Under the pieces are notes generated by a model, which was given only the letters and a program-made list of their open reading frames with translations, did not search any database and had not been told where the DNA came from. Shown in pieces: positions 9,914 through 42,523 of a DNA stretch of 64,000 bases (the first letter of the stretch is position 1; every line of letters begins with the position of its first letter). Origin of the DNA: a virus; the IMG/VR virus record IMGVR_UViG_3300045988_180769, positions 1-64,000 of that record, one strand, 5' to 3'. Both the position numbers and the translations under genes were made by a program.

Positions 9914-12472
9914 TTAAATATAACAATAAATTAATTCTTCTTTTGCTCTTGTAATTGCCACAAACTTCAAACACATTTCACTGTAGTATGCATCTTGTGT
10001 AATAGCATGTGGATTTGGAATTAGGTTTGGATTCAAAAAGAACACTTTGTTCGCTTCGAGCCCTTTTGACTTATGTATTGTACTTAATACCACTCCTTCA
10101 ATATCCTCTGTATAAATTTGTTTTATATGAGTTTCAAGTGAATCAAGATTATTCCATATCTTATATAGTTGAAATAAAATAGAACACTTTTCAACGAGAT
10201 TTATGTATGTAGGATTTTGAATTGCAACTTGATAAGATATTCCTTTCTCCATAAGTTTATTCACCTTCTCTTCTTTTAGAGCTTCTAAATCCTCAATCTT
10301 TTCAATCTTATCAAGAATTGCACAAAGTGCATCACCAAAGTCTTTTCCCTTTATTGTAGCTTTTACTCCTCTTTCGAGTAATGCTATGAATGCATCAATG
10401 AGTGGAAGATTGTTTCTACACAATACAAAGTCACCATCTTTTGCTTCTATCACATCACCATTTCTCACCAAACCTTCTATCGCATTAGGTGCACATTCAA
10501 TCCCACTTGAAAACACAGTTTTAGCTTCTTCTACTATTCTTTTTGCACAACGATAAGAAACATCGAGTGGTAAGGTTATTGTGTTTGGTAGATTTTCTAA
10601 CAATCTAAAATTTGATACACTTGATCCTTGGAACGCATAGATGTTTTGCCTTGGATCGCCAACTGCAATAAATCGACCAAATCGAGGCTTTAAATATCTT
10701 AATAGAAGTTCCCTTTGAATTACATTCATATCTTGTACTTCATCAGCGACAACTACATCGTATTTTGGAAAATCTTCATCATTCACTAAAATATATGGTA
10801 ACCACAACATATCAGTGAAATCCATTTGAAACTCTTTATTTCCATTGATCTTTTTCGCTTTCTTCATCCATTCTTCGTCAATCAATCGAATATCCTCTAC
10901 CATTCTTTCTCGAAATTCGATTTCCTTACCAATGCAAATGTTCATTATATCGTTCTCATAATCAACAAGTAGATTCATTCTTACTACATTCCATATATCT
11001 TGTAATTCAAAAAGATATCTCATTTGTTGTTTATAAGGAAGTTCTTTGAGATCAAGAATCTTCTTTGCGAGTACAAAACATTTATTCTCGTTCAACTTCA
11101 TTGTAAATGAAAAGTTGTAAAAAAGCACCTTTAGACCTTTGGCATGGAAAGTGTTAACTTCCACTCTTTCAGGAAGTCTACTTCTCAATTCCTCAGCAAT
11201 ACTCTTATTGAATGCCATGAAAAGAGATCTTTTTGTTATAGGTGTTCTTCGACAACATTCAACGATTGTTGTGGTCTTTCCTGAGTTATGAGTTATTGTA
11301 AAATCTCCTAAAACAAATCTTTGGTCTTTATCTACTGAAAAACCATACCAATCATCTATTTCTAATTTTTCAATTGAAAATCCAGTATGAAGAACGTTTT
11401 TAATTTGTCTTCTTGGTAACGCTTGTTTTCTTTTTAATTTTGTAGGAATTATTGATAAATCTCCAGAAATTGATATTAAATTATATTGTCCTTCAAAATT
11501 GATAGACTTTATTCTTCTTATAACTTTTTTAGAATAAGCTGCTAAACCAACGCTTCTACATAAATATAAGATTACATCTTTCAAATGATCGTATTTTGTC
11601 GTAATTTCAAAATAACCTGAACTTAAATTTCCATGAGTATCTCTAACTGTTGAATAACCATCTCCATCTAATAATCCAGCTAAAAATGCTAAACGATTTT
11701 CAAAAGAATTTATATAATATTCTTGAGGAACAATAATATCATTTCCTCTAAAAAGTTTAGAAAGTTTGTTCCATAAGGGGTTCGAATTTTTACCAGTTTC
11801 TTTTGTAGAATAATCTATGCACCAACAATTCCCTTTTTGCTTCGTTTTTCTTACAATCAACTTATTTTCTCCTTGAATATGAAAATTTTCCAAATATTCA
11901 AGAATTTCTAAATCGTCACAATTTACTGAAAGTTGACATTTATTCACTTGCTTTGTTCCATCAGCAAACCATAATCCTACAAAATAAGGATCTAAATCTA
12001 AATCTTTATATTTAAAATCAATTTTCGCTCGTTGCAAAAACAAATAAGATACATTTCCTTTTGGTGTTAACTTTCTATTTAAAATCTTATCCATTGGATA
12101 ATCTACTAAAGCAGTCTTGTGTTTAGAACATTTACTTTTCTTCATTTGAGCGTTAATATATTCATCCCAAACAGTTAAAATATGTTTGTCATTACATATC
12201 CATTCTTCTCCTTTTGTAGGTTTAATCTTATACAATTGACTTCGACCTTTGTGTATTTGCAATACATTGCGAGGTGTCGAATCGACACCCATTACTTGAT
12301 CTCCAATTTTGATATCTTGAACTTTTTTCAAAGAACCATCGTACATAAGAATATTAGTATCTTTTCCTAAACATCCTGCTGTAGCGTCTACAACGAGATT
12401 CTTTTTAGTGCATTCATAATTATCAAAAATGGTTTCTTGTCTAAAACTCCATTTGTTTGTTCCCATAATCAT
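9914..12472 (-). CDS. UvrD/PcrA-like SF1 DNA helicase, interrupted by an intein in Walker A
   Basis: After removing the intein, the extein reads DATAG|SGKTT. Downstream motifs are VVADEVQDMN, VGDPRQNIYAFQGS, VSYRC, STIHKSKGLE and VAITRAKEEL. Confidence 0.9.
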   Translation of the reverse strand: MIMGTNKWSFRQETIFDNYECTKKNLVVDATAGCLGKDTNILMYDGSLKKVQDIKIGDQVMGVDSTPRNVLQIHKGRSQLYKIKPTKGEEWICNDKHILTVWDEYINAQMKKSKCSKHKTALVDYPMDKILNRKLTPKGNVSYLFLQRAKIDFKYKDLDLDPYFVGLWFADGTKQVNKCQLSVNCDDLEILEYLENFHIQGENKLIVRKTKQKGNCWCIDYSTKETGKNSNPLWNKLSKLFRGNDIIVPQEYYINSFENRLAFLAGLLDGDGYSTVRDTHGNLSSGYFEITTKYDHLKDVILYLCRSVGLAAYSKKVIRRIKSINFEGQYNLISISGDLSIIPTKLKRKQALPRRQIKNVLHTGFSIEKLEIDDWYGFSVDKDQRFVLGDFTITHNSGKTTTIVECCRRTPITKRSLFMAFNKSIAEELRSRLPERVEVNTFHAKGLKVLFYNFSFTMKLNENKCFVLAKKILDLKELPYKQQMRYLFELQDIWNVVRMNLLVDYENDIMNICIGKEIEFRERMVEDIRLIDEEWMKKAKKINGNKEFQMDFTDMLWLPYILVNDEDFPKYDVVVADEVQDMNVIQRELLLRYLKPRFGRFIAVGDPRQNIYAFQGSSVSNFRLLENLPNTITLPLDVSYRCAKRIVEEAKTVFSSGIECAPNAIEGLVRNGDVIEAKDGDFVLCRNNLPLIDAFIALLERGVKATIKGKDFGDALCAILDKIEKIEDLEALKEEKVNKLMEKGISYQVAIQNPTYINLVEKCSILFQLYKIWNNLDSLETHIKQIYTEDIEGVVLSTIHKSKGLEANKVFFLNPNLIPNPHAITQDAYYSEMCLKFVAITRAKEELIYCYI
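11285..12373 (-). mobile_element. class 1 intein (363 aa) with a LAGLIDADG homing endonuclease, in the helicase P-loop
   Basis: Starts CLGKDTNILMYDG (Cys1, aa 34) and ends FTITHN followed by Ser+1 (aa 396/397). LAGLIDADG motifs are YFVGLWFADGT and LAFLAGLLDGDGY. Confidence 0.9.
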
Positions 12473-12939: not shown

Positions 12940-12940
12940 G

Positions 12941-12971: not shown

Positions 12972-15821
12972 CTATTTCTTGTTCCTACTTTTATCTTTGA
13001 TTTTCTTTATGAGAAGCGTATCTGTCGATTCGTCATTATTAATTATTGTGTCGATTCCTTTATTCACTGCATCAGTAATTTTTATCTTATAATCAAGAAT
13101 TTCTCTTGTCTCAACATCTATTGTTTCTTGTGACATGAGATAATATGCATTCATATTATGAACTTGACCCATCCTATCAATTCTCGCTGTCGCTTGTTCA
13201 AGTTCAGTTGGGGTTTGTGGCAATTCAATAAAAACTATATTATAACAACAATCTTGTAGACCATCTATTCCTGTAGAAAGTGTTTCCATGTTTGCAAATA
13301 AAAATTGTTTGTCTCTCTTCCAATTCTCTACTTTATTCATCTTTTCTTCAGTACTTCCACCACCAACAACCAATTCACTATATTTTGAAAATTCCTTATA
13401 CAATTCTTTCAATGGTTCTTTCATCATACCAAATACAATGAGCTTCAATTCTTCATCACTTTCTCTCCAATCTTTCAAAAATTGTATGATGAACTTTGTT
13501 TTTCCTTTTATAGAGAGTCTCTTTAAATTTGTCAATCTTACCAAATGTTCTGCGTTTTTTGCTTTTTCTGCAGCTTCAATATCAATTCCTTCAAGATACT
13601 CAATAAAGTTCTCCTCAGCCATTTTGTATTCTTTCTTATTGGTAATGGAGCAATCAATCGTTTGTTCAATAATGGGTGGAAGTTCTTTTAATACCTCTCT
13701 TCTTTCTTTTCTAAAATAACAATAATGTCTTAATATCTCATTAAGTTCCAATGTATAAGATGCTCCAGTGACATTAAGTCCAAAAGGTGTCATTTTAGCA
13801 TTACAATATCTATAAAGAAAATATTTTAAATCTGGAAATATCTTATCAAACTTACCAATGATCTTGAGAACACTAATGATTTCTTGTGGTCTATTCATTA
13901 TGACTGCTCCACTTAAAGCAACGATCTTGTTTGATTGCTTTGCAATCTTTTCTACTGCCTTAGATCTCAATGCCTTTGGATTTTTACACAAGTGAACTTC
14001 ATCTAAAATCAATGCTTCCCAATCTTTTAACAATTCTTCACCATATCTAATCTTTACATCTTTTTTGTCACCATCACTATTTTTCTCAAACAAAAAGTCA
14101 TAATTAATCACTGTCACATCAACTTCCCAATCGACATTCTTTGAACTTTTCGAATCAAGTATATGAAGTGTTCTTTTTGGATTACATCTTTTCCACTCTC
14201 TTTCCCAACTTGTTTTTACAGTAGAAGGACAAACAATAATGCATGGAAATAAATCAAGTAACTCTACAAAAGCAATTGTTTGTCTTGTATTGTGAGTTAA
14301 TATGATATCTTCTCCTGAAGCATATAAAGCGTCTTTATTAGAAACTTTGATACATTGCATTTCTTTTTCACCTACATATTCGATAGATTTTATCGCTCTA
14401 CAAGGCTCTTGTCTATTTTCTTTCAACAACTTTACTTTTCGTGATAGTCTACAAGGTAAAAATTTTTTAGGTAATTTTAATACTGTTCTATAAACATCTT
14501 TACATTCGATTATCTTTCCATCTTTATCTTTATAATGAGTTTTCATTGACCAAATTTTTCTTGATGTTCCTCCTAAACTTTTTGCAATAAATGCAACTTG
14601 TTCTGTTAGTTTTTTAGAAACACAAGCAAATTCTATTAAACCATTCTTTGAAACATATCCATCTGAGTCTATTAAACCTTGTAATATTGACAATCTTACT
14701 TCTGCTGTGTTATATAAATATTCTACTGGAATTTCTTTTTCGTGTGCACATTTATTCATCAATCCATAACTATCTAATCTCTCTCTAATCTTAGACATAT
14801 CTTTGCCACATAGATTAAAATCAATTGAACCTTTTGCATTTTCATTCCAAGTAACGTTTTCTTCAAAGTGCAATCTTTTAAATACTTCCTCTTGGTCTTG
14901 ATGTGCAATAGTTACCATGATTCGATTTCTTCTTAAACAACCATCTCCTAATAAGTAACCTATAATATAAGGATCTATAGAAGTTTCTTTTGAAGGAAAA
15001 TTCATTTCTTTAATCATCGGAAGTCTCCACCAATACACTCCATGATTGTGTCTATAATATGATTTATCTTGATCGACTCCCTTACCTCTTAATCCAGTTT
15101 GCATAATCTCTTTTAAAGAAACTGTTTTAAGTTTGCGAGATTTATATCCATTTGTTTTTCCATACCATAATGTCCACAAATGATCATCACAACATTCCAC
15201 TTGCGAATCATCTGAAAAAACAACTTTATAGCACTCCTTTTTACCTTGAGGATAAATATGTTCTACAACCTGAAGTTGACCATCACTACCAAAAATTTTA
15301 TCTCCCTCTTTCAAATCTCCAAATAAACAAGGTCCTTTTTCAGTATAAATTATCATATCTAAAGGCTGTGCTTTTCCTAATCCCATTGAACAACCATTAA
15401 TACAATTAGCGTGATTTATCATATATGTCAATCCCTCTAATTGATAATCTCTTAAATTTAATGGTAAGTTGAGACATTCAATCATTTCCTCTACCAATTC
15501 CTCATCGACAGCATTTTCAATAGGTTTTAATTCAATTTCTCTTGATTGAATAACTCGTCCTTTCTCGAAACCATTTTCTTCGAGAAATCCTTTTAGCAAC
15601 AAAGACTTTTCGAGTCCAAGTTGTAAATACCATTCTTTTGTTGCAGGATTATATTTTGCTCCAAAATCTTTCTTCATCTTTGTTGCGAGATAAGGTCTAT
15701 AATCGAAGCCAATATATATCCAATCTTTTTCTCTATAATAATATCTCATAGGTCTTTTTAAATAGATAAAGAGGGAATTTTGTTTCTCAACACAACTCCC
15801 TCTGCAATTATGACAATCCAA
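12972..15821 (-). CDS. SNF2-family helicase/ATPase, interrupted by an intein in motif I
   Basis: The extein reads DYQLEG...MGLGK|TRQTIAF. Later motifs are ILDEVHLCKN (DExH), SGAVIMNRPQE, and the C-terminal helicase motifs LSTGIDGLQ and QATARIDRMGQ. Confidence 0.9.
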   Translation of the reverse strand: MDCHNCRGSCVEKQNSLFIYLKRPMRYYYREKDWIYIGFDYRPYLATKMKKDFGAKYNPATKEWYLQLGLEKSLLLKGFLEENGFEKGRVIQSREIELKPIENAVDEELVEEMIECLNLPLNLRDYQLEGLTYMINHANCINGCSMGLGKAQPLDMIIYTEKGPCLFGDLKEGDKIFGSDGQLQVVEHIYPQGKKECYKVVFSDDSQVECCDDHLWTLWYGKTNGYKSRKLKTVSLKEIMQTGLRGKGVDQDKSYYRHNHGVYWWRLPMIKEMNFPSKETSIDPYIIGYLLGDGCLRRNRIMVTIAHQDQEEVFKRLHFEENVTWNENAKGSIDFNLCGKDMSKIRERLDSYGLMNKCAHEKEIPVEYLYNTAEVRLSILQGLIDSDGYVSKNGLIEFACVSKKLTEQVAFIAKSLGGTSRKIWSMKTHYKDKDGKIIECKDVYRTVLKLPKKFLPCRLSRKVKLLKENRQEPCRAIKSIEYVGEKEMQCIKVSNKDALYASGEDIILTHNTRQTIAFVELLDLFPCIIVCPSTVKTSWEREWKRCNPKRTLHILDSKSSKNVDWEVDVTVINYDFLFEKNSDGDKKDVKIRYGEELLKDWEALILDEVHLCKNPKALRSKAVEKIAKQSNKIVALSGAVIMNRPQEIISVLKIIGKFDKIFPDLKYFLYRYCNAKMTPFGLNVTGASYTLELNEILRHYCYFRKERREVLKELPPIIEQTIDCSITNKKEYKMAEENFIEYLEGIDIEAAEKAKNAEHLVRLTNLKRLSIKGKTKFIIQFLKDWRESDEELKLIVFGMMKEPLKELYKEFSKYSELVVGGGSTEEKMNKVENWKRDKQFLFANMETLSTGIDGLQDCCYNIVFIELPQTPTELEQATARIDRMGQVHNMNAYYLMSQETIDVETREILDYKIKITDAVNKGIDTIINNDESTDTLLIKKIKDKSRNKK
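14289..15371 (-). mobile_element. class 3-type intein (361 aa, Ala1, WCT triad) with a LAGLIDADG endonuclease
   Basis: Begins AQPLDMIIYT right after GLGK. Block B is CDDHLW (Trp two residues after His), block F is MQCIKV (Cys), and it ends LTHN followed by Thr+1. LAGLIDADG motifs are IIGYLLGDGCL and ILQGLIDSDGYV. Confidence 0.8.
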
Positions 15822-19514: not shown

Positions 19515-21515
19515 TTATTCCTCCAATCTACTTATTCCATTCTCTTTAATAATCTTCACTTGTTTAATCTCTTCATTCAACTTTGGTACATGAGTAATGA
19601 TGATTGTTGGTTGCTTTAAGAAACTCATTGATGAAATAATGTTTTCTACTCCAAGAGGATCGCAACTTTCTAATACTTCATCAACAAGTAGGAAGTTCAT
19701 ACCACCATATGTTTTTGTAGCATTAATCATTTGTTGAATAGCGAGTATCAATGCTATTTCAACTCTCGCCTGTTCTCCTCCTGAATAATAGAAGAATGAT
19801 TCTATTTCCTCTCTAAACACATAAGGAGTGATTTCCTCTTTCACTTTATTATTAGCACCTTTCTTAAAACCTTCTATGACCAATCTCAAATCACTACCCA
19901 TTGACTTCAATACATCATTCGCTCTCAATTGAATATTCTTCAATTGTTCTAAAGCGAGATACATCTTGAAATCTTTAAATCGAGTAGTCCATTGAGAAAC
20001 TTTGAATACTTCATTACTCTTGTCAAGAATTTTTGGATCAAGTGTTTTAACTTGTTTATCAATTTCTTTAATAGAATGCTCTACTCCTGATGTATCGACT
20101 TTCAATACAGGATCATTTGTAAGAGAATATTTTTGTTCTTTTTTAGTATTGATATATTCTTGATTATCAAGAATTTCCTTATTCTTAACTTCGATCTCTT
20201 TTGTTCTTCTCGTTTCTTCCAGATTAAGGTGAATTAATTGTTCCTCAATTAGACCAATCTTTTGTCTTATAATCTTTTGTTTTTGAATAAGTTCTTTTTC
20301 TTCTTCATATGTCTCTTTATTGAGAATATTATATTGTTCAATGATTTCATAAATCTCCTCAAGATTACTTTCAATAGAAGATTTGTTCTCTTTATTCTTT
20401 ATCACATCTCTTTCAACAATTGACTTCTCCTTTCTCAATTCATCAACACTTTTATCGTTTTTGAGTAGAAATTCATGATGACACTTTGGACAAACAATTA
20501 CACCAGCGAGTAATGTTTCAATCTTTGAAAGACTTGATTGTAACGAAAAAAGTTTTGCTCTCATTTCTTTGAGTTTAGACTCATGAACATCTCTTTCTCT
20601 TTTTTGTTGTACAAGATCTTCTTCAATATCTTTATAGATGGCTTTGAACGATTCGAGATCAATTTCATTCAATTCATTCTCAATGTCTTTTTTGAGTTTT
20701 TCTTTCTCTTTTCGTGATGCTTTAATTTCAATGATTTTCTTCTTACAAGAATCAATGTCAAGTCTTAAATCATTGTTTCTACCTTCTGTGATAATGATTT
20801 CTTTTTGAATTGCATTTATTTGATCTTTTCTTTCTTGTTCAACATCTTTTTCAAGTAATTGTTTTAACTGCTCTTCATAAACTGACCTTTTACCCAATAA
20901 AGATGTTTTCGAATCTTCTAATTTTCGTTTTTCCTCGTTTATTTTAGAAATCTTCTCTTCAATAACACTCTTGGTTTTATCTATATTGGAAAAGTTAATA
21001 AACCTACTTATAAGAGCTAATTTCTCAGTATTAGAAGATGAAAAGAAAGATTTATAATTTCCTTTGCTTATCACATAATAGGATTTAGCATCTTCTGCTG
21101 AAATTTCAATCCATTCAGCAACAAACTTATTACCATCATTTACTGTGGCAACATTTACAAGATTCCAATTACATTCTTCATCAATAAGAGCAATTTCGAG
21201 TTTCGAACTACCTTTGATTGGTATTGTTCGATTTATCTCTAAAGTCTTCTTTCTTATTGGACAATAAATTTGAACCTGTACAAATGCACAATCAGCACCA
21301 ATATGAATTAGCTTCTTATCGAGAACACCTCTCAAGTTTGTGCCATATATTCCATAGAACAATCCTTGTTCCATAAAACTTTTTCCTGAACCATTCGATA
21401 ATTGATCGTCTTGTGTACGATTTTCTCCAATGATCGCAATTGGTTCATGAACAAAATCGTAAGACAATGACTCAAATGGTCCAAAATTCTCTAATACTAA
21501 TCTTGTTGGATACAT
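19515..21515 (-). CDS. sbcC: SbcC/Rad50-like recombination ATPase
   Basis: N-terminal Walker A (NGSGKSF), long coiled coil, central CPKCHHEF zinc hook, signature SGGEQARVEIAL and Walker B (FLLVDEV). Confidence 0.85.
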   Translation of the reverse strand: MYPTRLVLENFGPFESLSYDFVHEPIAIIGENRTQDDQLSNGSGKSFMEQGLFYGIYGTNLRGVLDKKLIHIGADCAFVQVQIYCPIRKKTLEINRTIPIKGSSKLEIALIDEECNWNLVNVATVNDGNKFVAEWIEISAEDAKSYYVISKGNYKSFFSSSNTEKLALISRFINFSNIDKTKSVIEEKISKINEEKRKLEDSKTSLLGKRSVYEEQLKQLLEKDVEQERKDQINAIQKEIIITEGRNNDLRLDIDSCKKKIIEIKASRKEKEKLKKDIENELNEIDLESFKAIYKDIEEDLVQQKRERDVHESKLKEMRAKLFSLQSSLSKIETLLAGVIVCPKCHHEFLLKNDKSVDELRKEKSIVERDVIKNKENKSSIESNLEEIYEIIEQYNILNKETYEEEKELIQKQKIIRQKIGLIEEQLIHLNLEETRRTKEIEVKNKEILDNQEYINTKKEQKYSLTNDPVLKVDTSGVEHSIKEIDKQVKTLDPKILDKSNEVFKVSQWTTRFKDFKMYLALEQLKNIQLRANDVLKSMGSDLRLVIEGFKKGANNKVKEEITPYVFREEIESFFYYSGGEQARVEIALILAIQQMINATKTYGGMNFLLVDEVLESCDPLGVENIISSMSFLKQPTIIITHVPKLNEEIKQVKIIKENGISRLEE

Positions 21516-30035: not shown

Positions 30036-31638
30036 AATCAACCAATATATCGTTTTCTTGTAAGTCACTCGCCTTTATCACCAATTTTTCATCTCCTCTA
30101 AAGATCCTAACAAAATCTTTGCTTTTAATTCTTATGGGTGATGAACTTTCTTCATTGATTATAACTTCCTCAACCTTCTCATGTCTTATCAATCGACCCA
30201 TTGTTAAAAACCTTTCAAACAGTAAGTCATAATCGAGAGGATTGACCTGAACAAGACCTAATAGGTAAGAGACTAAACTACCTGCTGCAGAACCTCTTCC
30301 TGAACCAAGTAAAATATTCTCTTTCTTACACCAATTCACGATATCTCTCAAAGTAAGAAAATAGTCAACTACCTTTCCATCTTCAATTACTTTAAGCTCA
30401 CGATCAAGTCTTTCCCCAATAATTTCATCTGAATACTTCTCAAGTAATTCTGGGTGTTCTTCGACACCTTTGAATACAAGATCTTCGAACATTTGAATAT
30501 TATCTTCATATTCGAGCGCTTCTTCGTCTGTCATATAATAAACAGGCATATGTCGATTTTGAGTTTCGATCAAGAAATTACATTCAAAGGAAATATCTTT
30601 CAAATTGCTTATTGCATTGTCATATGTTTCAATGAACTTATCGTCATCGCCAAATAATGAACCTAATTCCTCAAAATATTCTTGATAATTTTTGAAATAT
30701 TGATTTTGACTTTCGTGAGTAACAATCTTTCCTAATGAATTAACTTTCTTTTTGATAGGAGCAAGCTCTTTTTCTGTGTAATAAGCATCACACATTGCCA
30801 CTGGTTTTAAATTGCTTTTAAAGAACTTCTTTAGATTATCGAGATATGCTTTATCTCTTTCTTCTTTTTCAAATACAACTGTATCTAACTGATAATATTC
30901 CACTATTTCATTGAAACTCCTTGGAATATTTGAATAACTTATTGTTTTTGGGTCCCATATGAAAATTAACCCATCGTAATAGTCTTCTATATCCTCTTCT
31001 GAAACATATGAAGAACCTTCTACATTCATTATTTCACTGAGTCTCAATAAATTAGACCATCCTTCTTTGTTCTTTACAAATGCTTTAATGGTGTATCTAA
31101 GATCCTTTTTCTCATTTAGAACATTAATCTCAAGACCTTGAATTGGTCTAAGACCCACTTTTTGACATGCATCCTGAAATTTCATTGATGCAGCTAATGT
31201 TCCTCTTTCGCATATACCAAGACTTGTAATTCCTAAGAACTTTGCTTTCTTACACCATTCGTCATAAAGCTCTAATCCATTCATTAATTCAAAAGAGCCA
31301 TGAACACCAAGATATGTATCAATATACAATTCATCTGAAAATAGGTTTGCTTTTCCAATCCATTTAACTTTTTCAAGTTTAACATTGTTTTCATTACCTT
31401 TCTTCAATGAATACCATATACTACCAAACTTGAAAATATAATTATCATAATTGGTTCGATCACAAGCCCAATGAAATTCTTCATCAAAGAAAATCCCTTT
31501 ATCTTGATCCTCCCATTTGAATGGCTCAAAAAGCTCATATGTTTGTCCATCTATATTGATAACAAATTCACTAACTTCTTCATATAGAATGAAATTGTCA
31601 GCGAGATATTGTAATAACTCACCATATAATTCTCTCAT
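30022..31638 (-). CDS. dnaE: DNA polymerase III alpha subunit, N-terminal piece (PHP domain to LFERFL)
   Basis: PHP-like GVHGSFELMNG...GITSLGICERG and GSGRGSAAGSLVSYLLGLVQVNPLDYDLLFERFL, then a 56-aa non-polymerase tail before the stop. Confidence 0.85.
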   Translation of the reverse strand: MRELYGELLQYLADNFILYEEVSEFVINIDGQTYELFEPFKWEDQDKGIFFDEEFHWACDRTNYDNYIFKFGSIWYSLKKGNENNVKLEKVKWIGKANLFSDELYIDTYLGVHGSFELMNGLELYDEWCKKAKFLGITSLGICERGTLAASMKFQDACQKVGLRPIQGLEINVLNEKKDLRYTIKAFVKNKEGWSNLLRLSEIMNVEGSSYVSEEDIEDYYDGLIFIWDPKTISYSNIPRSFNEIVEYYQLDTVVFEKEERDKAYLDNLKKFFKSNLKPVAMCDAYYTEKELAPIKKKVNSLGKIVTHESQNQYFKNYQEYFEELGSLFGDDDKFIETYDNAISNLKDISFECNFLIETQNRHMPVYYMTDEEALEYEDNIQMFEDLVFKGVEEHPELLEKYSDEIIGERLDRELKVIEDGKVVDYFLTLRDIVNWCKKENILLGSGRGSAAGSLVSYLLGLVQVNPLDYDLLFERFLTMGRLIRHEKVEEVIINEESSSPIRIKSKDFVRIFRGDEKLVIKASDLQENDILVDYDNN

Positions 31639-34843: not shown

Positions 34844-35695
34844 TTATCTGTATCTTTCTGTTCCCCAAATAACAATTTGCAATCTATCTGAATAGATAAA
34901 ACCATTCTTTGCACAATATTCTGCCACCATTTTCCTATTTTGATCTAATTCTTCGTTGGTCGATCCTGATGGCATTAATATAATATTTAGTGGTTGAATA
35001 AATTCATCATCTTCCCATACAATATTAGAATTTCTATATAGAGGGACTTTCATTCGATTTCTTTTATAAACATCATAATCGATAAGATCTTTAATTTGTT
35101 GATGAATTTCTTCAAAATCATTTTTGCTACCAACAACATATTTCAATCTAAAGTCCTGAGAATATGTCAATAAGTCCCATAATGCATCTATATTCCAACG
35201 ATTTTTAGAATGATTTTTCATGACTTCTGTCATCTTCATTCCAAGTTTAGCGCATTTCTCTTCTGTAGGTTCTGATGACTTTAATTTAGGAGAAATATTA
35301 ATTAAATCAATATTTCCTATTATTTTTGGACAAGGTGCTATTGTTCCATTTGTTTCAACGATTACATTTTTATCATAGGTTTTAGCAATTTCAATAATGT
35401 CTCTAACGATTTCAGGATAAAGAAATACTTCGCCACCTGTAATAGATATATCTTTTGTCAATGGATATTTTTCAATTTCATCTATTATAGACTGGTATGT
35501 ATACTTTCCTTTTTCAGGATTAAAACTTGAATACGCTGTATCACAAATACTATTATCAAAACAGCATCTAAGATTACAACCACTTAATCGAACAAACAAA
35601 GTTGGATTCCCAGTTGTGATTCCTTCACCTTCTATCGAAGTAAATACCTCAATAATTGGTCTATATTTAGAAAGATCTATATTACTTATTTTCAT
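34844..35695 (-). CDS. queE: 7-carboxy-7-deazaguanine synthase (radical SAM)
   Basis: FTSIEGEG, VRLSGCNLRCCFDNSICDT (Cys cluster) and ITGGEVFLY. Confidence 0.8.
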   Translation of the reverse strand: MKISNIDLSKYRPIIEVFTSIEGEGITTGNPTLFVRLSGCNLRCCFDNSICDTAYSSFNPEKGKYTYQSIIDEIEKYPLTKDISITGGEVFLYPEIVRDIIEIAKTYDKNVIVETNGTIAPCPKIIGNIDLINISPKLKSSEPTEEKCAKLGMKMTEVMKNHSKNRWNIDALWDLLTYSQDFRLKYVVGSKNDFEEIHQQIKDLIDYDVYKRNRMKVPLYRNSNIVWEDDEFIQPLNIILMPSGSTNEELDQNRKMVAEYCAKNGFIYSDRLQIVIWGTERYR

Positions 35696-36327
35696 ACTTG
35701 TTGATCTACTTTAGGATTTATAAACAAATCTTCATTTGGATTTTTATATGACGATTTTCCTTTCAAATACCAATTCCAGAGATCAGTTCCCCAATCTTTA
35801 GTTACTCCTGTCGAAAATTGAATAGTACCTTCTTTAGTCTCTCCATTTGTCATCACACCAAAAATATTTGGCATATCTAACAAATCTGAAACAAAACTTG
35901 TTGCACTTCCAGTTCTTGTTTCGTAATATTGTACAGAAAGAGCTGTCAATTCAGCTTCACCATTATTCGTTTGAGTGCACATAAGAATACCTTGAATTGC
36001 AGATAAAAGAAATAATGAGAGCATTTCAGCAGAAGGATTAAATGGAAGACTTATCCATCTATCACTATGCTTCATGATGAACTTAATATATTCTTCATCA
36101 TCCTGATTCCAAAACACAGTGCAGTGATCAAAAGAATCAATAAATTGCTTAATTGACCCTTTCATTAATCCAAAATCATAAATCATACCTGCATTATCTA
36201 ATTTAGAAGCAGTGAGACTTACAAGAACTTTGTAAGAATGACCATGAATAGATCTCTTACATCTTTCTGTTGAACAATTGCGCACAATGTGTGCCATTTC
36301 ACCTTCGAATTCTTTAGTAATTATCAT
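35692..36327 (-). CDS. queD: 6-carboxy-5,6,7,8-tetrahydropterin synthase
   Basis: FEGEMAHIV, CKRSIHGHSYKV and MIYDFG, the PTPS/QueD fold motifs. Confidence 0.75.
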   Translation of the reverse strand: MIITKEFEGEMAHIVRNCSTERCKRSIHGHSYKVLVSLTASKLDNAGMIYDFGLMKGSIKQFIDSFDHCTVFWNQDDEEYIKFIMKHSDRWISLPFNPSAEMLSLFLLSAIQGILMCTQTNNGEAELTALSVQYYETRTGSATSFVSDLLDMPNIFGVMTNGETKEGTIQFSTGVTKDWGTDLWNWYLKGKSSYKNPNEDLFINPKVDQQV

Positions 36328-37373: not shown

Positions 37374-37375
37374 CA

Positions 37376-38383: not shown

Positions 38384-38385
38384 AA

Positions 38386-39816
38386 TTAAATTCTTTCAGC
38401 CTTTTTTAACTTCGTTTCTTTTTTTTGTTTATCATCTTTCTTTTTGACTGGATGATAATTGGTAAAAAGTTCTCTTGTTCTTCCTTTATTGCAAAATCTT
38501 CCTCGATCATAATCTGTTGCAATAGGAATGATTTCTTGAGATCCTTTATAATCTCGAATCTTGTCAACATATACTCGTAAAACAGATTGCTTCAATTCTT
38601 CTCTTGTTTGATTTCCAGTTAACACAAAAGAAAATGGCTTCACTAATGTCTTGTCTCCTTCAGTATAACTTCTATCAATCACTTTATCAGAATTATCCCA
38701 TATCTCTATAGGAACGTTACTTGCCTGTGTTGCAGTAACTCCAACCATTTTAAACTCCACACAAATGTTTTTGAATAATTGAGCACTTGTTTGAAGTTTA
38801 TCTTTTTTATATGCAGGATTCGTATCAATAATTTTATTTATTCCTGTTGCTACAAGATCTAACGAGTCCATCACCAACACTTTTGGAAAGAAACCATGTA
38901 CTTTGCCATAATCAAGAACAAGGTTTCTAACATCAACCATCGTTGCTTCTCCAAACTTCTCAAAACCATATACATCAATGTCTTGACCATATTCAATCAT
39001 AGACCTATATGATTGTGTAACCTTCTTTTGATCTTCTGCTTTTAAAAATCCCTGTCGAATATCGTTAAACGATTGATTCGTCCAAAACTGATCATACTTA
39101 TCCAAACATGCCTGTACACCACCTTCTAACTGAATATGTAACACTGGATTGCCATCTAACGCTGCAGCCATAGCCTGATATCTTAATGCTGTCGACTTTC
39201 CTATTCCAGACCTCATTATCCATAGAACAGTATCTTCACAGAGAGCACCTCCATATGCGAGATCGTCTAATTGATCTATTCCAAAAGTAATCTTTATAGG
39301 TGTTTGACTTGTTTCAATATTCTCTCGTCTTTTTTTCATTCGAGTATTGAAATTTCCAAACACTTTATGAAAATTTCCTCCATCGTGTCTTAATGAAAGA
39401 GATAGTATTCTTTGACTTTCTTCAGCGTTAACTCTTATAGCTTCATCTTTTTTACCATCTTCGTATAAATCATGAACTTTCTTTGACAATAATTGAAACT
39501 CAATATCTTTTATGTATGACTCAAGTTGATCTATTATTATTTCTCTATCAACTTTTGCAGCTTTATGTATTTCATCAATCGACTCTTGTACAAAGTCATT
39601 GTCAATATATTTCTGTGAAACAACTCCTAATGATGGAACTGTTTCTTTCTTTGTGAAAATTTCAATTGCTTCTCGAAGAAGATATTTATATCCAGACCAT
39701 TCTTTTGGTATTAATTGATATGTTAAATTGCTCACAGCTATCTGTGTCAATACTGGATCGAGATAAATCAATTTAAAGAGTTCAGCCATAAAATTGGCTG
39801 ATAATTTCTGTGCCAT
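38386..39816 (-). CDS. dnaB: DnaB-like replicative helicase
   Basis: Walker A (MRSGIGKSTAL), Walker B-like (VLVMDSLDLV), and a helical N-terminal domain of about 180 aa. Confidence 0.8.
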   Translation of the reverse strand: MAQKLSANFMAELFKLIYLDPVLTQIAVSNLTYQLIPKEWSGYKYLLREAIEIFTKKETVPSLGVVSQKYIDNDFVQESIDEIHKAAKVDREIIIDQLESYIKDIEFQLLSKKVHDLYEDGKKDEAIRVNAEESQRILSLSLRHDGGNFHKVFGNFNTRMKKRRENIETSQTPIKITFGIDQLDDLAYGGALCEDTVLWIMRSGIGKSTALRYQAMAAALDGNPVLHIQLEGGVQACLDKYDQFWTNQSFNDIRQGFLKAEDQKKVTQSYRSMIEYGQDIDVYGFEKFGEATMVDVRNLVLDYGKVHGFFPKVLVMDSLDLVATGINKIIDTNPAYKKDKLQTSAQLFKNICVEFKMVGVTATQASNVPIEIWDNSDKVIDRSYTEGDKTLVKPFSFVLTGNQTREELKQSVLRVYVDKIRDYKGSQEIIPIATDYDRGRFCNKGRTRELFTNYHPVKKKDDKQKKETKLKKAERI

Positions 39817-39817
39817 A

Positions 39818-42523
39818 TTATATTAGAGTTATTCCAACTTTGACTTCTTTTTCATCTTCTCTCAAACTATTGATTGCTAAAAATGCACTCATGGTGATAT
39901 CGTCATGTCCTGAACTTGCTTCGAGTTTACCATTATCACTTTTAAATGTAATAGAAGCAAACTCTCCAAACATTATTTCCACTGCTTGTTTTGTTTCTCC
40001 AGGAGCATATGGACATTTGATCTGTCCTCTTTCAAACATTGCTGAAAGACTTGGCAATCCAGTATAAAGATCCTTTTTATTTCCTTCAGTTGTTGTAAAT
40101 GGCTCTATATTTTTTAATCCTCTTTCTTGTGCCAATCCTGATAATATGGACTGAAATCCATTCGCTTCACATATAATTTTGTTTGGTCTAAAAAGACGAT
40201 CAAGTTGAACAATCTTATCTACCTGCTCATTATGAGACATTCCTTTTTGCCTATAATAATAAAGTAAATAGAAGTTCTTCATTGCATCAATGCCCCAAAC
40301 TGAATAAACAGTATAGTCAGCACCAATATTACCAGACACAGCAAAGTCAACACCAATATGAACTCTTGTCAACTTGATTGGAAATTCATCTATTGAACTC
40401 GCAAACCTTATATTCTCCATTCCAACAATACTTCTCATAAGGTATTCATATGGAAAGATCGTTGAAGAGTCACTAATTGGAACAACTAAATATTCTCGAT
40501 TGAATACAATTGTTCCAAGTTCTTCTTTCTTTTCGAGTATCTGTGAAAAAGTAAATCTATCTGGTGCCAATGGACGTCCATTTGGAAAGACGATTGGATA
40601 TTCAAAGCAATAAAATCGTTTATCTGCTTTTAATAATTGATACAATTCATTAGGAGCTGAAGAGAATGGAGTTCCACAAATAAGAAAATATCCATAAGGT
40701 TCTACGATAGGCTCTATTGTACCTTTTAAAAGCTCTTTCATCTTTTCTCTCTGTTCATCTGAATAAAGAGATGATTCATCAGGCATGTCATCGCATAATG
40801 CAGCTCCAACATGAAGACCTCGAATAAATCCATCCTTACCACGAACATGAAGAATTGAACCAGTTTCTGTTGTGATACCAGTCTCACCAATAGACGCTTT
40901 ATTGTTTGGATTTAACTTTTCCTTAATAAGATCATTTGTTTCAATTTCTTCTCTCACTTTGGCAACTTGTACTTTCGCCAGTGTCATCGTAGAAGTGATG
41001 TAACAAGTTTCCTTTCTATTGGCATTATCTATTGTATCAGGTCTCCAAACAGTTGGTCTACAATAACTCCACAATCTCCATAATATAAAAGCATAAGACC
41101 ACTCAAAACTATTGTGAACTACTGTTCCATCTTTATGAAGATATAAATGATCACCATCAAGATAAAAACCATAGAATTTTGTTCTCTCACCTTTGGTAAC
41201 TTCAATCTTTCCTCTTCTATAGTCTTGTCTATAATGAATCTGATGAGCTCGTTTTCTCTCGACTCTTGTTGGAATTGTATGTAAATCCAATGAAATTCTT
41301 AATTCGTCTCTACTAAATCCTTTTATAGTTCGTGAGCTTAAAGAAGTTCTAAATCCTAAAGACCAGGCTAAATCTTGAACTTGTTTAATAAAACTTCCTG
41401 ATTTTAAAGTTAATTCAAAAATAGTTCCTGTTGAACTTAAATGTCCATCTGTATCAAGTATTCCTGCTAATAATTGAAGTCTCTGCTCTCGAGAACCTCT
41501 CATATAAATATCAGGAATATGTTTATTATTCAATACATTAAGCTCTCTAAGAACATTCAAAACTGGATTAATCTCTCCATGTTTTTGTTCAACATTGGTT
41601 AAAGAATATTCGTATTTGTTTTTTAATTTGAATAATTTCATTCCAAGTGATTCTGCATACTCTTTCCAAGCATCTATAATTTCTATATCTGCAGAAGTCA
41701 ACTTTGTACAATTACTATGTCTATCTCCTAACCAAGTTCCAAAAATATATGGATCAATAGGAAGTGATTGATCAGAAAGCTCCCAACCATTAATTCTGTA
41801 ACCATATAATCTTTTTTGTTTTGATCTTGGAAGATCATAAAAATCCTTTGCTGAAATTTCAACTATTTCTTGTCCATTCTTTCTATAATTTCCATGTCCA
41901 TATTCCATATATCCAAACTTATCTTTTTGTAGATGAAGTATGTGTCTGGAATTAACAACATAATCTAATCCATGTTTTTGCTTAATATGATAAGAATCAT
42001 CTTCACATACGTGAGTTTGTAGAACTACTCGAGGTGTCGAATCGACACCCATCACTTTATCTCCTACTTTAATATCTTCGATCTTTTTTAAAGACCCATC
42101 AAACATTACAACTTCAGTTCCAGCGATCTCTGTTTTTCCACTTGCTCTACTACACAAGTAACAGCTCCATGGAAAAAGTTGTGTTAAATTTCCCCATTCA
42201 ATATTTCTCCATCCCATTCTGAACTTTGGGAGCATTGTTGTTTTGAAATAATTGAACGATAAAATTTTAAGCGTAGAATCCATTGAAGATTTTACATTCT
42301 CAACATACTCAAGATTCTCTGAATCAAGTGATTTACCCAGATATAACGCTCTTTCTGCCTGTGTTGTCATTTCTTTTAGCATCGCATCAACATCATTATC
42401 ATATCCTTCCATGAGTTGATATAATGCTTTTCCAGGAAGAGCTTCAATTACTTTATCTATTGTATCACATAAATAATTGAGTTGTATGTTTGAAAGTAAG
42501 TCTTTTCCATCAGGTGTTAGCAT
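39818..42523 (-). CDS. terL: terminase large subunit, interrupted by an intein in Walker A
   Basis: The extein reads CSRASGK|SFEWSYAFILW (P-loop). The C-terminal RNase H-like nuclease domain has HIGVDFAVSGNIGADYTV, ICEANGFQ and SGHDDITMSAFLA. Confidence 0.85.
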   Translation of the reverse strand: MLTPDGKDLLSNIQLNYLCDTIDKVIEALPGKALYQLMEGYDNDVDAMLKEMTTQAERALYLGKSLDSENLEYVENVKSSMDSTLKILSFNYFKTTMLPKFRMGWRNIEWGNLTQLFPWSCYLCSRASGKTEIAGTEVVMFDGSLKKIEDIKVGDKVMGVDSTPRVVLQTHVCEDDSYHIKQKHGLDYVVNSRHILHLQKDKFGYMEYGHGNYRKNGQEIVEISAKDFYDLPRSKQKRLYGYRINGWELSDQSLPIDPYIFGTWLGDRHSNCTKLTSADIEIIDAWKEYAESLGMKLFKLKNKYEYSLTNVEQKHGEINPVLNVLRELNVLNNKHIPDIYMRGSREQRLQLLAGILDTDGHLSSTGTIFELTLKSGSFIKQVQDLAWSLGFRTSLSSRTIKGFSRDELRISLDLHTIPTRVERKRAHQIHYRQDYRRGKIEVTKGERTKFYGFYLDGDHLYLHKDGTVVHNSFEWSYAFILWRLWSYCRPTVWRPDTIDNANRKETCYITSTMTLAKVQVAKVREEIETNDLIKEKLNPNNKASIGETGITTETGSILHVRGKDGFIRGLHVGAALCDDMPDESSLYSDEQREKMKELLKGTIEPIVEPYGYFLICGTPFSSAPNELYQLLKADKRFYCFEYPIVFPNGRPLAPDRFTFSQILEKKEELGTIVFNREYLVVPISDSSTIFPYEYLMRSIVGMENIRFASSIDEFPIKLTRVHIGVDFAVSGNIGADYTVYSVWGIDAMKNFYLLYYYRQKGMSHNEQVDKIVQLDRLFRPNKIICEANGFQSILSGLAQERGLKNIEPFTTTEGNKKDLYTGLPSLSAMFERGQIKCPYAPGETKQAVEIMFGEFASITFKSDNGKLEASSGHDDITMSAFLAINSLREDEKEVKVGITLI
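41111..42133 (-). mobile_element. intein (341 aa) with a LAGLIDADG endonuclease in the TerL P-loop; apparent Thr at position 1
   Basis: TEIAGTEVVMFDGSLKK aligns residue for residue with CLGKDTNILMYDGSLKK of the helicase intein. It ends GTVVHN followed by Ser+1. LAGLIDADG motifs are IFGTWLGDRHS (degenerate) and LLAGILDTDGH. Confidence 0.8.

What the first reader, a model, noticed from the sequence alone, without database searches (positions are those of the whole stretch)
11285..42133. Three inteins in one 31-kb stretch, each inserted in the Walker A P-loop of a different ATPase
Seen: in the UvrD-like helicase the insertion is AG|intein|SGKTT. In the SNF2 helicase it is GLGK|intein|T. In TerL it is SGK|intein|S. 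All three carry double-motif LAGLIDADG endonuclease domains with the shared landmark DPY..G...GD. Established: inteins favour conserved catalytic sites such as P-loops. Inference: this genome has an unusually high intein density. The three host genes are not homologous outside the P-loop, so this looks like ectopic spread between P-loop sites within one genome or one phage gene pool.
Basis: partly seen in the sequence, partly recalled or inferred. Interest (0 to 1): 0.65.

Follow-up and report, generated by a model that had tools for sequence, protein, structure and literature searches.

The report
Three P-loop inteins in gut phage
A roughly 106-kb human-gut phage carries three separately acquired self-splicing protein elements (inteins) in the ATP-binding loops of its UvrD-like helicase, SNF2 helicase and large terminase; this arrangement is known from other phages, but the terminase intein starts with threonine, which intein papers from 2010 to 2023 do not list at that position.

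Summary
Three in-frame inteins sit at the stated coordinates, all on the minus strand. Each carries two LAGLIDADG motifs and splits a Walker A loop:
- UvrD-like helicase: ATAG|C…THN|SGKTT
- SNF2 helicase: GLGK|A…THN|T
- TerL: SGK|T…VHN|S

The three are not copies of one another: they are 24-29% identical overall and 21-35% in the splicing domains.

They belong to two mechanistic classes. The UvrD and TerL inteins are PI-SceI-like class 1. The SNF2 intein is class 3: Ala1, a Trp-Cys-Thr triplet and Thr+1.

A 96-97% identical phage lacks the UvrD and SNF2 inteins precisely. TerL relatives exist with a full intein, a mini-intein or none. So the inteins are currently or recently mobile in a pool of ~105-kb gut phages. 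Inteins clustering in P-loops, and related inteins sitting in unrelated ATPases, are already published.

The unexpected part is TerL residue 1, which is Thr. It is kept across a clade down to about 62% identity through three synonymous codons. I found no paper reporting a natural Thr1 intein.

The parts
9914..12472 (-). UvrD-like helicase precursor gene (852 aa including the intein)
   Evidence: ORF. Pfam UvrD-helicase 3.2e-14, AAA_19 and UvrD_C. An intein-free orthologue of 487 aa is 98% identical (P0126).
11285..12373 (-). UvrD intein, 363 aa, class 1. Cys1, block B NDKH, terminal THN and Ser+1. Inserted in Walker A between ATAG and SGKTT.
   Evidence: Boundaries. Hom_end_hint 6e-20, plus Hom_end and LAGLIDADG_3. 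Precisely absent from the 96-97% identical phage L007. Cys1 in nearly all orthologous inteins.
11957..11992 (-). UvrD intein, LAGLIDADG motif 1 (DPYFVGLWFADG). Motif 2 (FLAGLLDGDG) lies at 11657-11686.
   Evidence: The acidic residue is kept in both motifs.
12972..15821 (-). SNF2-family helicase precursor gene. The mechanical ORF starts at a TTG. Gene callers on other contigs give products that correspond to a start at Met25, about 15749 (925 aa).
   Evidence: ORF. SNF2-rel_dom 6.1e-18 and Helicase_C. P0241 is 925 aa at 100% identity. Intein-free P0242 is 564 aa at 99% identity.
14289..15371 (-). SNF2 intein, 361 aa, class 3. Ala1, block B DDHLW (Trp), block F MQCIKV (Cys), block G THN (Thr) and Thr+1. 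Inserted between Lys and Thr of GLGK|T.
   Evidence: Boundaries. Trp, Cys and Thr align to the engineered WCT triplet of gp41-1_WCT (6riz); the N-terminal region also matches the class 3 MchDnaB1 intein (6rix, 6riy). Of 96 relatives at the same kind of site, 78 start with Ala, none starts with Cys, Ser or Thr, and 94 have Thr+1. Absent from L007.
14940..14975 (-). SNF2 intein, LAGLIDADG motif 1 (DPYIIGYLLGDG). Motif 2 (ILQGLIDSDG) lies at 14658-14687.
   Evidence: LAGLIDADG_3 3.8e-8.
39818..42523 (-). Large terminase (TerL) precursor gene, 901 aa including the intein
   Evidence: ORF. Terminase_6C 5.3e-7. Orthologues occur as ~900 aa (full intein), 704 aa (mini-intein) and 560 aa (no intein). 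The Bacteroides phage DAC16 TerL has no intein.
41111..42133 (-). TerL intein, 341 aa, PI-SceI-like. Thr1, block B NSRH, terminal VHN and Ser+1. Inserted between Lys and Ser of SGK|S.
   Evidence: Boundaries. Gap-free alignment to Cys1 inteins at the same site. Hom_end_hint 1.5e-15. In the AlphaFold2 model the intein part has pLDDT ~85-95. Best structural match is PI-SceI 1ef0, E 1.6e-23.
42131..42133 (-). Codon ACA, the Thr at position 1 of the TerL intein
   Evidence: The same position is ACA, ACG or ACT in relatives whose inteins are about 62-95% identical (identities; codons). Every cluster member checked has Thr.
41720..41755 (-). TerL intein, LAGLIDADG motif 1 (DPYIFGTWLGDR; Arg where Gly usually follows the Asp). 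Motif 2 (LLAGILDTDG) lies at 41444-41473.

Best explanation
The window comes from a ~106-kb phage of the human gut. It carries three independently acquired mobile inteins. Each belongs to its own site-specific lineage, and each sits in the Walker A loop of an ATPase, at least one of which (the terminase) is essential for making phage.

Inferred from established intein biology, not tested here: each precursor is translated with the intein in its ATP-binding loop and cannot work until the intein cuts itself out. Splicing rejoins ATAG-SGKTT, GLGK-T and SGK-S. Each intein's LAGLIDADG endonuclease cuts intein-free alleles during co-infection. Repair then copies the intein in (homing).

The proposed chemistry differs between the three:
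- UvrD intein: standard class 1, through a Cys1 thioester.
- SNF2 intein: class 3. The block F Cys attacks the upstream peptide bond, and Ala1 is not a nucleophile.
- TerL intein: has the class 1 layout but starts with Thr. It most likely begins with an N-to-O acyl shift on Thr1 and passes the N-extein to Ser+1, using oxygen esters only.

Shown here: the anatomy, the class signatures, presence/absence polymorphism in near-identical phages, the grouping with same-site inteins, and conservation of Thr1. Inferred: splicing itself, endonuclease activity, and Thr1 acting as the nucleophile.
For: Anatomy and domains.

Independent origin:
- Pairwise identity is 24-29%.
- Splicing-domain identity to same-site inteins is 55-82% (UvrD, TerL) and 46-60% (SNF2), against 21-35% to one another.
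- NJ tree: UvrD-site clade 81%, Thr1 TerL clade 100%, class 1 separated from class 3 at 100%.

Class 3 assignment of the SNF2 intein:
- W, C and T align to the engineered WCT triplet of 6riz; the N-terminal region also matches the class 3 structures 6rix and 6riy.
- All 96 relatives have a non-nucleophilic first residue, and 94 have Thr+1.
- This matches the definition in PMC2807308.

Mobility:
- L007 is 96-97% identical in DNA and lacks both the UvrD and SNF2 inteins exactly.
- Five synonymous differences lie within 16 nt of the SNF2 junction. This is the densest cluster in the gene (P 4e-4; only 1% of 32-nt windows reach it).
- Full-intein, mini-intein and empty alleles exist for TerL and UvrD.

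Thr1:
- The spliced product SGK-SFEWSY matches empty alleles SGK-SFFWSY with no residue gained or lost.
- Thr is invariant in a clade that diverges to about 62% identity. It occurs in dozens of metagenome contigs of ~100 kb.
- Codons ACA, ACG and ACT are all used.
- Splicing regions are 81-82% conserved, against 58-68% for the linker and endonuclease regions. One member has lost both catalytic Asp residues of the endonuclease yet keeps Thr1 and the splicing blocks.
- A second Thr1 TerL intein represents a separate 50%-identity cluster (P0364).
- The fold model matches PI-SceI.
- An S1T mutant of the Tli pol-2 intein splices (PMC2807308).
Against: - No protein data exist. Splicing, ester chemistry and endonuclease activity are all inferred.
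- Tree support along the backbone is very low, so deep relationships between site lineages are unresolved.
- The cluster of differences at the UvrD junction is not significant (P 0.08).
- The available intein-free TerL DNA is only ~76% identical to the window. No homing signature could be read there.
- The Thr1 gut-phage clade also has a conserved Cys43 and a [K/R]-His54 that the Cys1 alleles lack. The more distant Thr1 intein P0364 lacks both. A different internal nucleophile in the gut clade is therefore not excluded.
- In the window, LAGLIDADG motif 1 of the TerL intein reads GDR instead of GDG. Its endonuclease may be weakened.
Confidence: 0.8

Rival explanations
1. One reading: one intein recently copied itself between the three P-loop sites inside this genome, or inside this one phage lineage.
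For: All three sit in Walker A loops. They share HINT-plus-double-LAGLIDADG architecture and a DPY..G...GD landmark. The UvrD and TerL inteins share a very similar N-terminal stretch (MYDGSLKKVQDIKIGDQVMGVDSTPRNVLQ against MFDGSLKKIEDIKVGDKVMGVDSTPRVVLQ). That stretch is also shared with Jerseyvirus, Segz_1 and many other inteins.
Against: Identities are 24-29%, which is at or below the ~30% level used to separate allelic from non-allelic inteins (PMC10710043). Each intein groups with same-site inteins. The SNF2 intein is class 3 and the other two are not. The three sites differ in position within the loop: G|SGKT against GK|T/S.
Confidence: 0.03
2. The three site lineages arose by old non-allelic homing between P-loops of unrelated ATPases across the wider phage gene pool. 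Similar GxxGK[S/T]-coding DNA would let a tolerant endonuclease cut a new gene. The lineages then diversified separately. This complements the best explanation rather than competing with it.
For: Among 144 complete intein domains in the best 150 representatives found with the TerL intein, 110 sit after GK and 18 before [S/T]GK. They occur in many different host proteins. In the tree the two kinds of site are intermingled within the class 1 clade. The nearest phage-database relatives occupy other hosts or other loop positions. Examples are the Jerseyvirus helicase GGGK|T and Segz_1 TerL GRG|SGKT, the class 3 relatives in the DnaB-like helicase of L002, in PhoH and in phi8074-B1 ORF42. Similar cases are published (PMC5050341; PMC2807308).
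Against: Backbone bootstraps are near zero, so direction and number of jumps cannot be read. Selective retention in P-loops (PMC4760082) could produce the same pattern without many jumps.
Confidence: 0.55
3. The TerL insert is not a working Thr1 intein. Three versions are possible. (a) It is a dead or decaying element or a sequencing error. (b) Thr belongs to the N-extein (GKT) and the intein starts at Glu. (c) Thr1 is a bystander and another residue, for example the clade-specific Cys43, starts the reaction as in class 3.
For: Intein papers list only Cys or Ser at position 1 (PMC10663303), and PMC2807308 notes Thr1 had not been observed. GKT would also be a valid Walker A ending, and some empty alleles read GK|TYQW. 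Cys43 and [K/R]-His54 are specific to the gut Thr1 clade.
Against: (a) TerL is essential. Thr1 alleles occur in many ~100-kb contigs from independent samples with intact ORFs. Three synonymous codons keep Thr. Splicing blocks are the best-conserved part. (b) The alignment to Cys1 inteins is gap-free with Thr opposite Cys. Starting at Glu would add one residue to the loop relative to every empty allele. (c) There is no WCT triplet: block B has Leu where Trp would be, and the block F stretch FYGFYL contains no Cys. P0364 has Thr1 but not Cys43.
Confidence: 0.15
4. The inteins are kept because they regulate the host ATPases through conditional splicing, rather than only as selfish elements.
For: All three block the ATP site of DNA-handling enzymes. 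The idea is argued in PMC4760082.
Against: Near-identical phages do without two of them, and empty, mini and full alleles coexist. That fits selfish gain and loss. Nothing here tests regulation.
Confidence: 0.1

Closest known systems
PI-SceI (yeast VMA1 intein) and Prp8 inteins: class 1 HINT domain with a nested double-motif LAGLIDADG endonuclease
   Same: The UvrD and TerL inteins hit Pfam Hom_end_hint and Hom_end. Sequence matches to Prp8 and PI-SceI chains reach 2e-13 to 1e-10. The TerL model superposes on PI-SceI at E 1.6e-23, TM 0.64. They share a terminal His-Asn.
   Different: The host is a phage ATPase P-loop, not a V-ATPase or Prp8. Identity is only ~20%. The TerL intein starts with Thr and uses Ser+1, so no cysteine sits at either junction.
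Mycobacteriophage TerL1-a/b P-loop inteins (Kelley et al. 2016, PMC5050341)
   Same: An intein between the invariant Lys and the Ser/Thr of the terminase Walker A. Several inteins per phage genome, a mix of class 1 and class 3, and empty alleles in related phages.
   Different: A different terminase family (Terminase_6C here), different hosts (human-gut phages related to Bacteroides phages) and Thr1.
Class 3 inteins: mycobacteriophage Bethlehem DnaB intein and Deinococcus radiodurans Snf2 intein (PMC2807308; the Brace et al. 2010 Snf2 paper is known to me only from a reference list)
   Same: The SNF2 intein has a non-nucleophilic residue 1, the WCT triplet, Thr+1, a helicase host and a P-loop site. 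These are the defining features.
   Different: It carries a full LAGLIDADG endonuclease and sits in a gut-phage SNF2 gene. I could not read the Dra Snf2 paper, so I did not confirm that its site is the same.
Intein of the Jerseyvirus (Salmonella phage SEP1-like) helicase, and TerL inteins of Salmonella phage Segz_1, Klebsiella KpV2811 and Vibrio pYD38-A
   Same: These are the best matches in the phage collection: 39% to the UvrD intein and 40% to the TerL intein. Same architecture, and all sit in P-loops.
   Different: The Jerseyvirus intein sits at GGGK|T in a different helicase. The Segz_1 intein sits at GRG|SGKT, three residues upstream of the window's TerL site. All start with Cys.
crAss-like Zeta-group gut phages with up to 3 inteins and 14 introns per genome (Yutin et al. 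2021, PMC7886860)
   Same: Human-gut phages whose core genes, TerL included, are heavily invaded by self-splicing elements.
   Different: This phage is a different lineage: ~106 kb with a Pol III alpha polymerase. No introns were noticed in the window.

Membership tests
Intein (HINT splicing domain), all three inserts | In-frame insertion in a conserved host protein that is precisely absent from close homologues | tested here: met
   L007 lacks the UvrD and SNF2 inteins exactly. Empty TerL alleles read SGK|SFFWSY.
Intein (HINT splicing domain), all three inserts | Conserved blocks: block B His, C-terminal His-Asn, and a Ser/Thr/Cys nucleophile at +1 | tested here: met
   NDKH...THN|S, DDHLW...THN|T and NSRH...VHN|S. 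Pfam Hom_end_hint for UvrD and TerL. PDB intein matches for SNF2 and TerL.
Intein (HINT splicing domain), all three inserts | Protein splicing actually occurs | not testable with these tools
   Needs expression, western blot or mass spectrometry.
Class 1 intein | Cys or Ser at position 1 as the first nucleophile (PMC10663303) | tested here: met
   This row is for the UvrD intein: Cys1, conserved in almost all orthologous inteins.
Class 1 intein | Cys or Ser at position 1 (TerL intein) | tested here: not met
   Residue 1 is Thr (ACA) and stays Thr through the clade. All other class 1 features are present. I therefore file it as a Thr1 variant that probably works like class 1, not as a textbook member.
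Class 3 intein | Non-nucleophilic residue 1 together with Trp (B:12), Cys (F:4) and Thr (G:5), and Ser/Thr at +1 (PMC2807308) | tested here: met
   This row is for the SNF2 intein: Ala1, HLW, MQC, THN|T. The W, C and T positions align to 6riz; the N-terminal region also matches 6rix and 6riy. The pattern is family-wide.
Class 3 intein | WCT triplet (UvrD and TerL inteins) | tested here: not met
   Block B reads KHIL and RHIL, with no Trp. The block F stretches read WYGFSV and FYGFYL, with no Cys.
Class 3 intein | Block F branched intermediate | not testable with these tools
   Biochemical.
Class 2 (KlbA-like) intein | Ala1, no WCT triplet, and direct attack by the +1 residue, usually Cys | tested here: not met
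   The TerL intein has Thr1 and Ser+1. Neither the UvrD nor the SNF2 intein fits either.
LAGLIDADG homing endonuclease (double-motif, PI-SceI type) | Two LAGLIDADG motifs, each keeping the catalytic acidic residue | tested here: met
   Motifs listed. Pfam LAGLIDADG_3 or Hom_end in all three. The TerL motif 1 has Arg after the Asp, and relative P0002 has lost both Asp residues.
LAGLIDADG homing endonuclease (double-motif, PI-SceI type) | Cleaves the intein-free allele | not testable with these tools
   Indirect only: presence/absence polymorphism and clustered synonymous differences at the SNF2 junction.
Split intein (considered for the two-piece DnaE gene in the window) | An N-fragment starting with a nucleophile after the extein, and a C-fragment ending in His-Asn or similar before a +1 nucleophile | tested here: not met
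   The N piece ends ERFL + TMGRL…DYDNN. The C piece starts MITIKTIKKEVVESTKLG|SLPDIDTDF, with no terminal Asn. No Pfam HINT hit and no phmmer hit.

The most novel reading that the evidence does not exclude
The TerL intein belongs to a natural clade of inteins that start protein splicing with threonine at position 1, paired with Ser+1, so no cysteine is involved at either junction. That nucleophile has been called chemically possible, but a 2010 paper said it had not been observed (PMC2807308). Later texts still list only Cys or Ser at position 1 (PMC10663303, 2023). The 2023 set of cysteine-less class 1 inteins in PMC10189870 contains only Ser1 inteins. The clade is widespread in human-gut phages. 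Its GenBank entries are annotated simply as 'Terminase large subunit'. It has Cys1 and Ser1 counterparts at the very same site, which gives a ready-made natural comparison.
Probability: 0.5. Interest if true: 0.65.

Novelty: new variant of a known kind. Interest (0 to 1): 0.45.

Why it matters
As first described, the finding is a good example of something already known. Phage ATPases collect inteins in their P-loops, several can share one genome, and related inteins turn up in unrelated ATPases.

The added value is twofold.

First, this gut-phage family is an unusually clean natural system for intein gain and loss:
- A 96-97% identical genome lacks the UvrD and SNF2 inteins.
- Full, mini and empty alleles exist at several sites.
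- Further intein sites are occupied in relatives' DnaE and DnaB-like genes.

Second, if the TerL intein does use Thr1, it would fill a gap noted since at least 2010. It would show that all three hydroxyl or thiol side chains are used by nature at position 1. It would also offer a new cysteine-free intein scaffold. Such inteins are sought for protein ligation under oxidising conditions (PMC10189870). The Cys1 and Ser1 alleles at the same site in the same protein would let the supporting residues be worked out by comparison.

Tried and rejected
1. NX motif. I looked for the '[K/R]-His plus upstream Glu' motif reported for cysteine-less Ser1 inteins (PMC10189870). The gut Thr1 clade does have a clade-specific Glu44 and [K/R]53-His54. 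But the spacing differs from the published case, the tools give no model coordinates to measure distances, and the second Thr1 intein P0364 lacks the His. I do not claim it.

2. Homing signature at junctions. It is significant for SNF2 only. UvrD gives P 0.08. For TerL the empty alleles with DNA in hand are only ~76% identical and uninformative.

3. TerL allele of L007. I tried to learn whether the near-identical phage L007 carries the TerL intein. The look-ups returned only the window's own contig and its copies. Matching 'longest contig' values (106,589 bp) for P0513, P0218 and P0252 hint at a genome with the TerL intein but neither of the others. This is not proven.

4. Fourth intein. None was found by phmmer. 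The odd 60-aa tail of the DnaE N piece has no Pfam match and fails the split-intein features.

5. Slippage or recoding at GGA AAA ACA as an explanation for Thr. Rejected, because relatives read GGG AAG ACG and GGA AAG ACT.

6. Papers. Tori & Perler 2011 and Brace et al. 2010 are not held. The exact Dra Snf2 site and any later note on Thr1 there are unchecked. Several full-text searches aimed at natural Thr1 inteins found no report, but the library omits most subscription journals.

7. Whole-precursor AlphaFold2 model. The exteins came out at low confidence. Only the intein part was used.


Full report
**What is there**

The window is AT-rich (about 31% G+C). Across the region examined it is coded almost entirely on the minus strand. 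Three long ORFs hold in-frame inserts:

| Host ORF | Intein (aa; window coordinates) | Junction |
|---|---|---|
| UvrD-like helicase, 9914-12472 | 34-396; 11285-12373 | VVDATAG\|CLGKDT…FTITHN\|SGKTT |
| SNF2 helicase, 12972-15821 | 151-511; 14289-15371 | CSMGLGK\|AQPLD…IILTHN\|TRQT |
| Large terminase, 39818-42523 | 131-471; 41111-42133 | CSRASGK\|TEIAG…GTVVHN\|SFEW |

Pfam recognises the hosts: UvrD-helicase, AAA_19 and UvrD_C; SNF2-rel_dom and Helicase_C; Terminase_6C. It also recognises the inserts. Hom_end_hint scores 6e-20 and 1.5e-15, and Hom_end or LAGLIDADG_3 hits occur in all three.

Each insert has two LAGLIDADG motifs that keep the acidic residue. A phmmer search of all six frames found no fourth intein.

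**Where the window comes from**

The identical TerL protein lies on 106-kb contigs from human-gut metagenomes. Its cluster includes GenBank third-party-annotation records named only 'Terminase large subunit [Caudoviricetes sp.]'.

The closest cultured relatives by TerL are Bacteroides phages of the DAC16 group, at 35% identity and with no intein. An unannotated gut-phage scaffold, MT835760.1, is closer at 57.5%.

**Are the three copies of each other?**

No.
- Whole-intein identities are 29% (UvrD and TerL), 24% and 25%.
- In the phage collection each has better matches elsewhere:
  - The UvrD intein is 39% identical to the Jerseyvirus helicase intein.
  - The TerL intein is 40% identical to the TerL inteins of Segz_1, KpV2811 and pYD38-A.
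  - The SNF2 intein is 37% identical to a DnaB-like helicase intein in MT835760.1 and 36% to a Clostridium phage ATPase intein.
- Searches with the whole precursors found many orthologues carrying an intein at the same site.
- In an alignment of splicing domains from 75 inteins, the window UvrD intein is 55-72% identical to UvrD-site inteins. The TerL intein is 75-82% identical to its clade, and the SNF2 intein 46-60% to SNF2-site inteins.
- UvrD against TerL is 34.8%, ranked 55-56 of 74. Either against SNF2 is 21-22%.
- In the neighbour-joining tree the UvrD-site clade has 81% bootstrap and the Thr1 TerL clade 100%. Class 1 is split from class 3 at 100%.

The tree backbone is unresolved, so nothing firm can be said about deeper relationships.

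**Two mechanistic classes**

The SNF2 intein starts with Ala. It has Trp two residues after the block B His (DDHLW), Cys in block F (MQCIKV), and Thr-His-Asn followed by Thr.
- These three positions align with the engineered Trp-Cys-Thr triplet of gp41-1_WCT (6riz); the intein's N-terminal region also matches the class 3 MchDnaB1 intein (6rix, 6riy).
- In 96 relatives at GLGK|…|T-type sites, the first residue is never Cys, Ser or Thr (78 are Ala). In 94 the +1 residue is Thr.
- This meets the published definition of class 3 inteins, which were noted from the start to sit in P-loops of helicases, SNF2 proteins and terminases (PMC2807308).

The UvrD and TerL inteins lack the triplet. They are PI-SceI/Prp8-like by sequence. 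For TerL the same holds by predicted fold: the intein part has pLDDT of about 85-95, and the best match is PI-SceI at E 1.6e-23.

**The inteins are mobile in this phage population**

Contig L007 is 96-97% identical in DNA to the window over about 21 kb. It lacks the UvrD and SNF2 inteins to the nucleotide.

Five synonymous differences lie within 16 nt upstream of the SNF2 junction. That is the densest cluster in the gene (P 4e-4). The UvrD junction has four nearby differences, which is not significant (P 0.08).

TerL orthologues come with a full intein (~900 aa), a 144-aa mini-intein (704 aa) or none (560 aa). UvrD orthologues show the same three states, plus inteins at other sites.

Relatives also carry a class 3 intein in the DnaB-like helicase P-loop and a mini-intein in DnaE. 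Both sites are empty in the window.

The class 1 family to which the UvrD and TerL inteins belong is very large: 16,403 representatives at E ≤ 0.001. It is strongly tied to P-loops. Of 144 complete domains among the best 150 representatives, 110 follow GK and 18 precede [S/T]GK, in many different proteins.

Close relatives occupy different hosts and different positions within the loop. The class 3 relatives of the SNF2 intein occur in DnaB-like, PhoH and other ATPases.

So old jumps between P-loops across the phage gene pool are likely. That has already been argued for mycobacteriophages and bacteria (PMC5050341; PMC4760082). Non-allelic homing has also been discussed for eukaryotes (PMC10710043).

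Three inteins per genome equals the intein maximum reported for crAss-like Zeta phages (PMC7886860).

**The unexpected feature: Thr at position 1 of the TerL intein**

The first residue is Thr (ACA). It aligns without gaps opposite the Cys of other inteins at the same site. Removing Thr…Asn gives SGK-SFEWSY, which matches empty alleles SGK-SFFWSY residue for residue.

Evidence that Thr is selected for:
- Thr is invariant in a clade of TerL inteins whose members fall to about 62% identity with one another and about 42% with the Cys1 clade.
- It is present in every cluster member read and in many contigs of about 100 kb.
- It is encoded by ACA, ACG and ACT in different members.
- Within the clade the splicing regions are 81-82% identical, against 58-68% for the linker and endonuclease regions.
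- One member has lost both catalytic Asp residues of the endonuclease yet keeps Thr1 and the splicing blocks.
- A second Thr1 TerL intein, P0364, represents a separate 50% cluster and is sister to the clade at 82% bootstrap.
- Among the 144 representative domains the first residue is Cys 141 times, Ser twice and Thr once.

What the literature says:
- A 2023 review still gives 'either a cysteine or serine' (PMC10663303).
- A 2023 study of cysteine-less class 1 inteins assembled only Ser1 examples (PMC10189870).
- Several searches aimed at this question found no report of a natural Thr1 intein. The library is incomplete, so I treat the novelty as probable, not certain.

Because the terminase is essential, the simplest reading is that these inteins splice with Thr1 as the first nucleophile. 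Two alternatives are less likely but open:
- A clade-specific internal nucleophile such as Cys43 (absent from P0364).
- A junction shifted by one residue.

**Verdict**

The headline interpretation, spread within one genome, is refuted by the test its author proposed. The broader idea of P-loop hopping in the phage gene pool is plausible but already known.

Two of the inteins are new members of known kinds. The third is a Thr1 variant of the class 1 kind and deserves a bench test.

Noticed in passing
window 27972-31638 (- strand); junction near 30022-30068: The phage Pol III alpha (DnaE) gene is in two overlapping ORFs. The break falls between ERFL and SLPDIDTDF (Pfam profile positions 98 and 100). 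The N piece ends in a 60-aa tail (TMGRLIRHEK…LVDYDNN) whose pattern resembles the start of a HINT domain. The C piece probably starts at the ATG inside TATGATAACAATTAA (MITIKTIKKEVVESTKLG). There is no terminal Asn, no Cys, and no Pfam or phmmer intein hit. The same split and tail are conserved in relative L004. It may be an intein remnant, or a two-subunit polymerase.
   Followed up: partly
L004 and L006, about 21179-21201: In relatives with an intein-free TerL, the catalytic PDIDTDF motif of the DnaE C piece is interrupted by 23 nt, TAGCCCCTTCGGGGGAACGAGTC. This contains an in-frame TAG and a CCCC-UUCG-GGGG hairpin, and its length is not a multiple of three. The hairpin core (CCCCTTCGGGGG) is present at the same position in two independent samples' contigs, and the L004 contig was seen in 8 samples. 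The window has the uninterrupted sequence and no copy of the hairpin. It could be a translational bypass element, a tiny insertion, or a dead gene.
   Followed up: partly
L004 19052-21043 (compare window around GSGRGSAAGS in ORF 30022-31638): The relatives' DnaE N piece holds a 127-aa mini-intein at GSGRG|CFHPKS…GVIVHN|SSAGS that is absent from the window. The gene table also shows a faint intein hit in their longer C piece (817 aa against 698 aa), which was not examined.
   Followed up: partly
L002 8086-10611 (MT835760.1); window 38386-39816: The DnaB-like helicase next to TerL carries a class 3 intein (GTGK|ALTLD…VTHN|T, 364 aa) in the related gut phage but is intein-free in the window (MRSGIGKST). 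That intein is 37% identical overall, and 44% in the splicing domain, to the window's SNF2 intein.
   Followed up: yes
P0076 (L060 501-3278): One TerL orthologue has Ser (TCG) as the first intein residue at the same site (SSGK|SHCRDT…). It belongs to the Cys1 clade by sequence, so Cys, Ser and Thr all occur at position 1 at this one site. It is seen on a single contig, so an error or a dead copy is not excluded.
   Followed up: partly
P0134, P0193 (UvrD orthologues): Rare UvrD-site inteins start with Trp or Gly instead of Cys (WLGKDT, GLGKDT). These are probably inactive copies or sequence errors.
   Followed up: no
window 46209-51647 and 51702-63002 (- strand): Two giant ORFs of 1812 and 3766 aa. 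The first has seven CarboxypepD_reg-like repeats plus PKD-like domains, so it is presumably a tail or fibre protein.
   Followed up: no
window 34844-36327 region and relatives L004 15177-17252: The relatives carry PTPS (QueD-like), radical SAM (QueE-like) and GTP cyclohydrolase I genes downstream of the primase. ORFs of matching sizes lie at the corresponding place in the window, and a copy of the window's own contig (L061) shows the PTPS and radical SAM hits. This suggests a 7-deazaguanine DNA-modification pathway.
   Followed up: no
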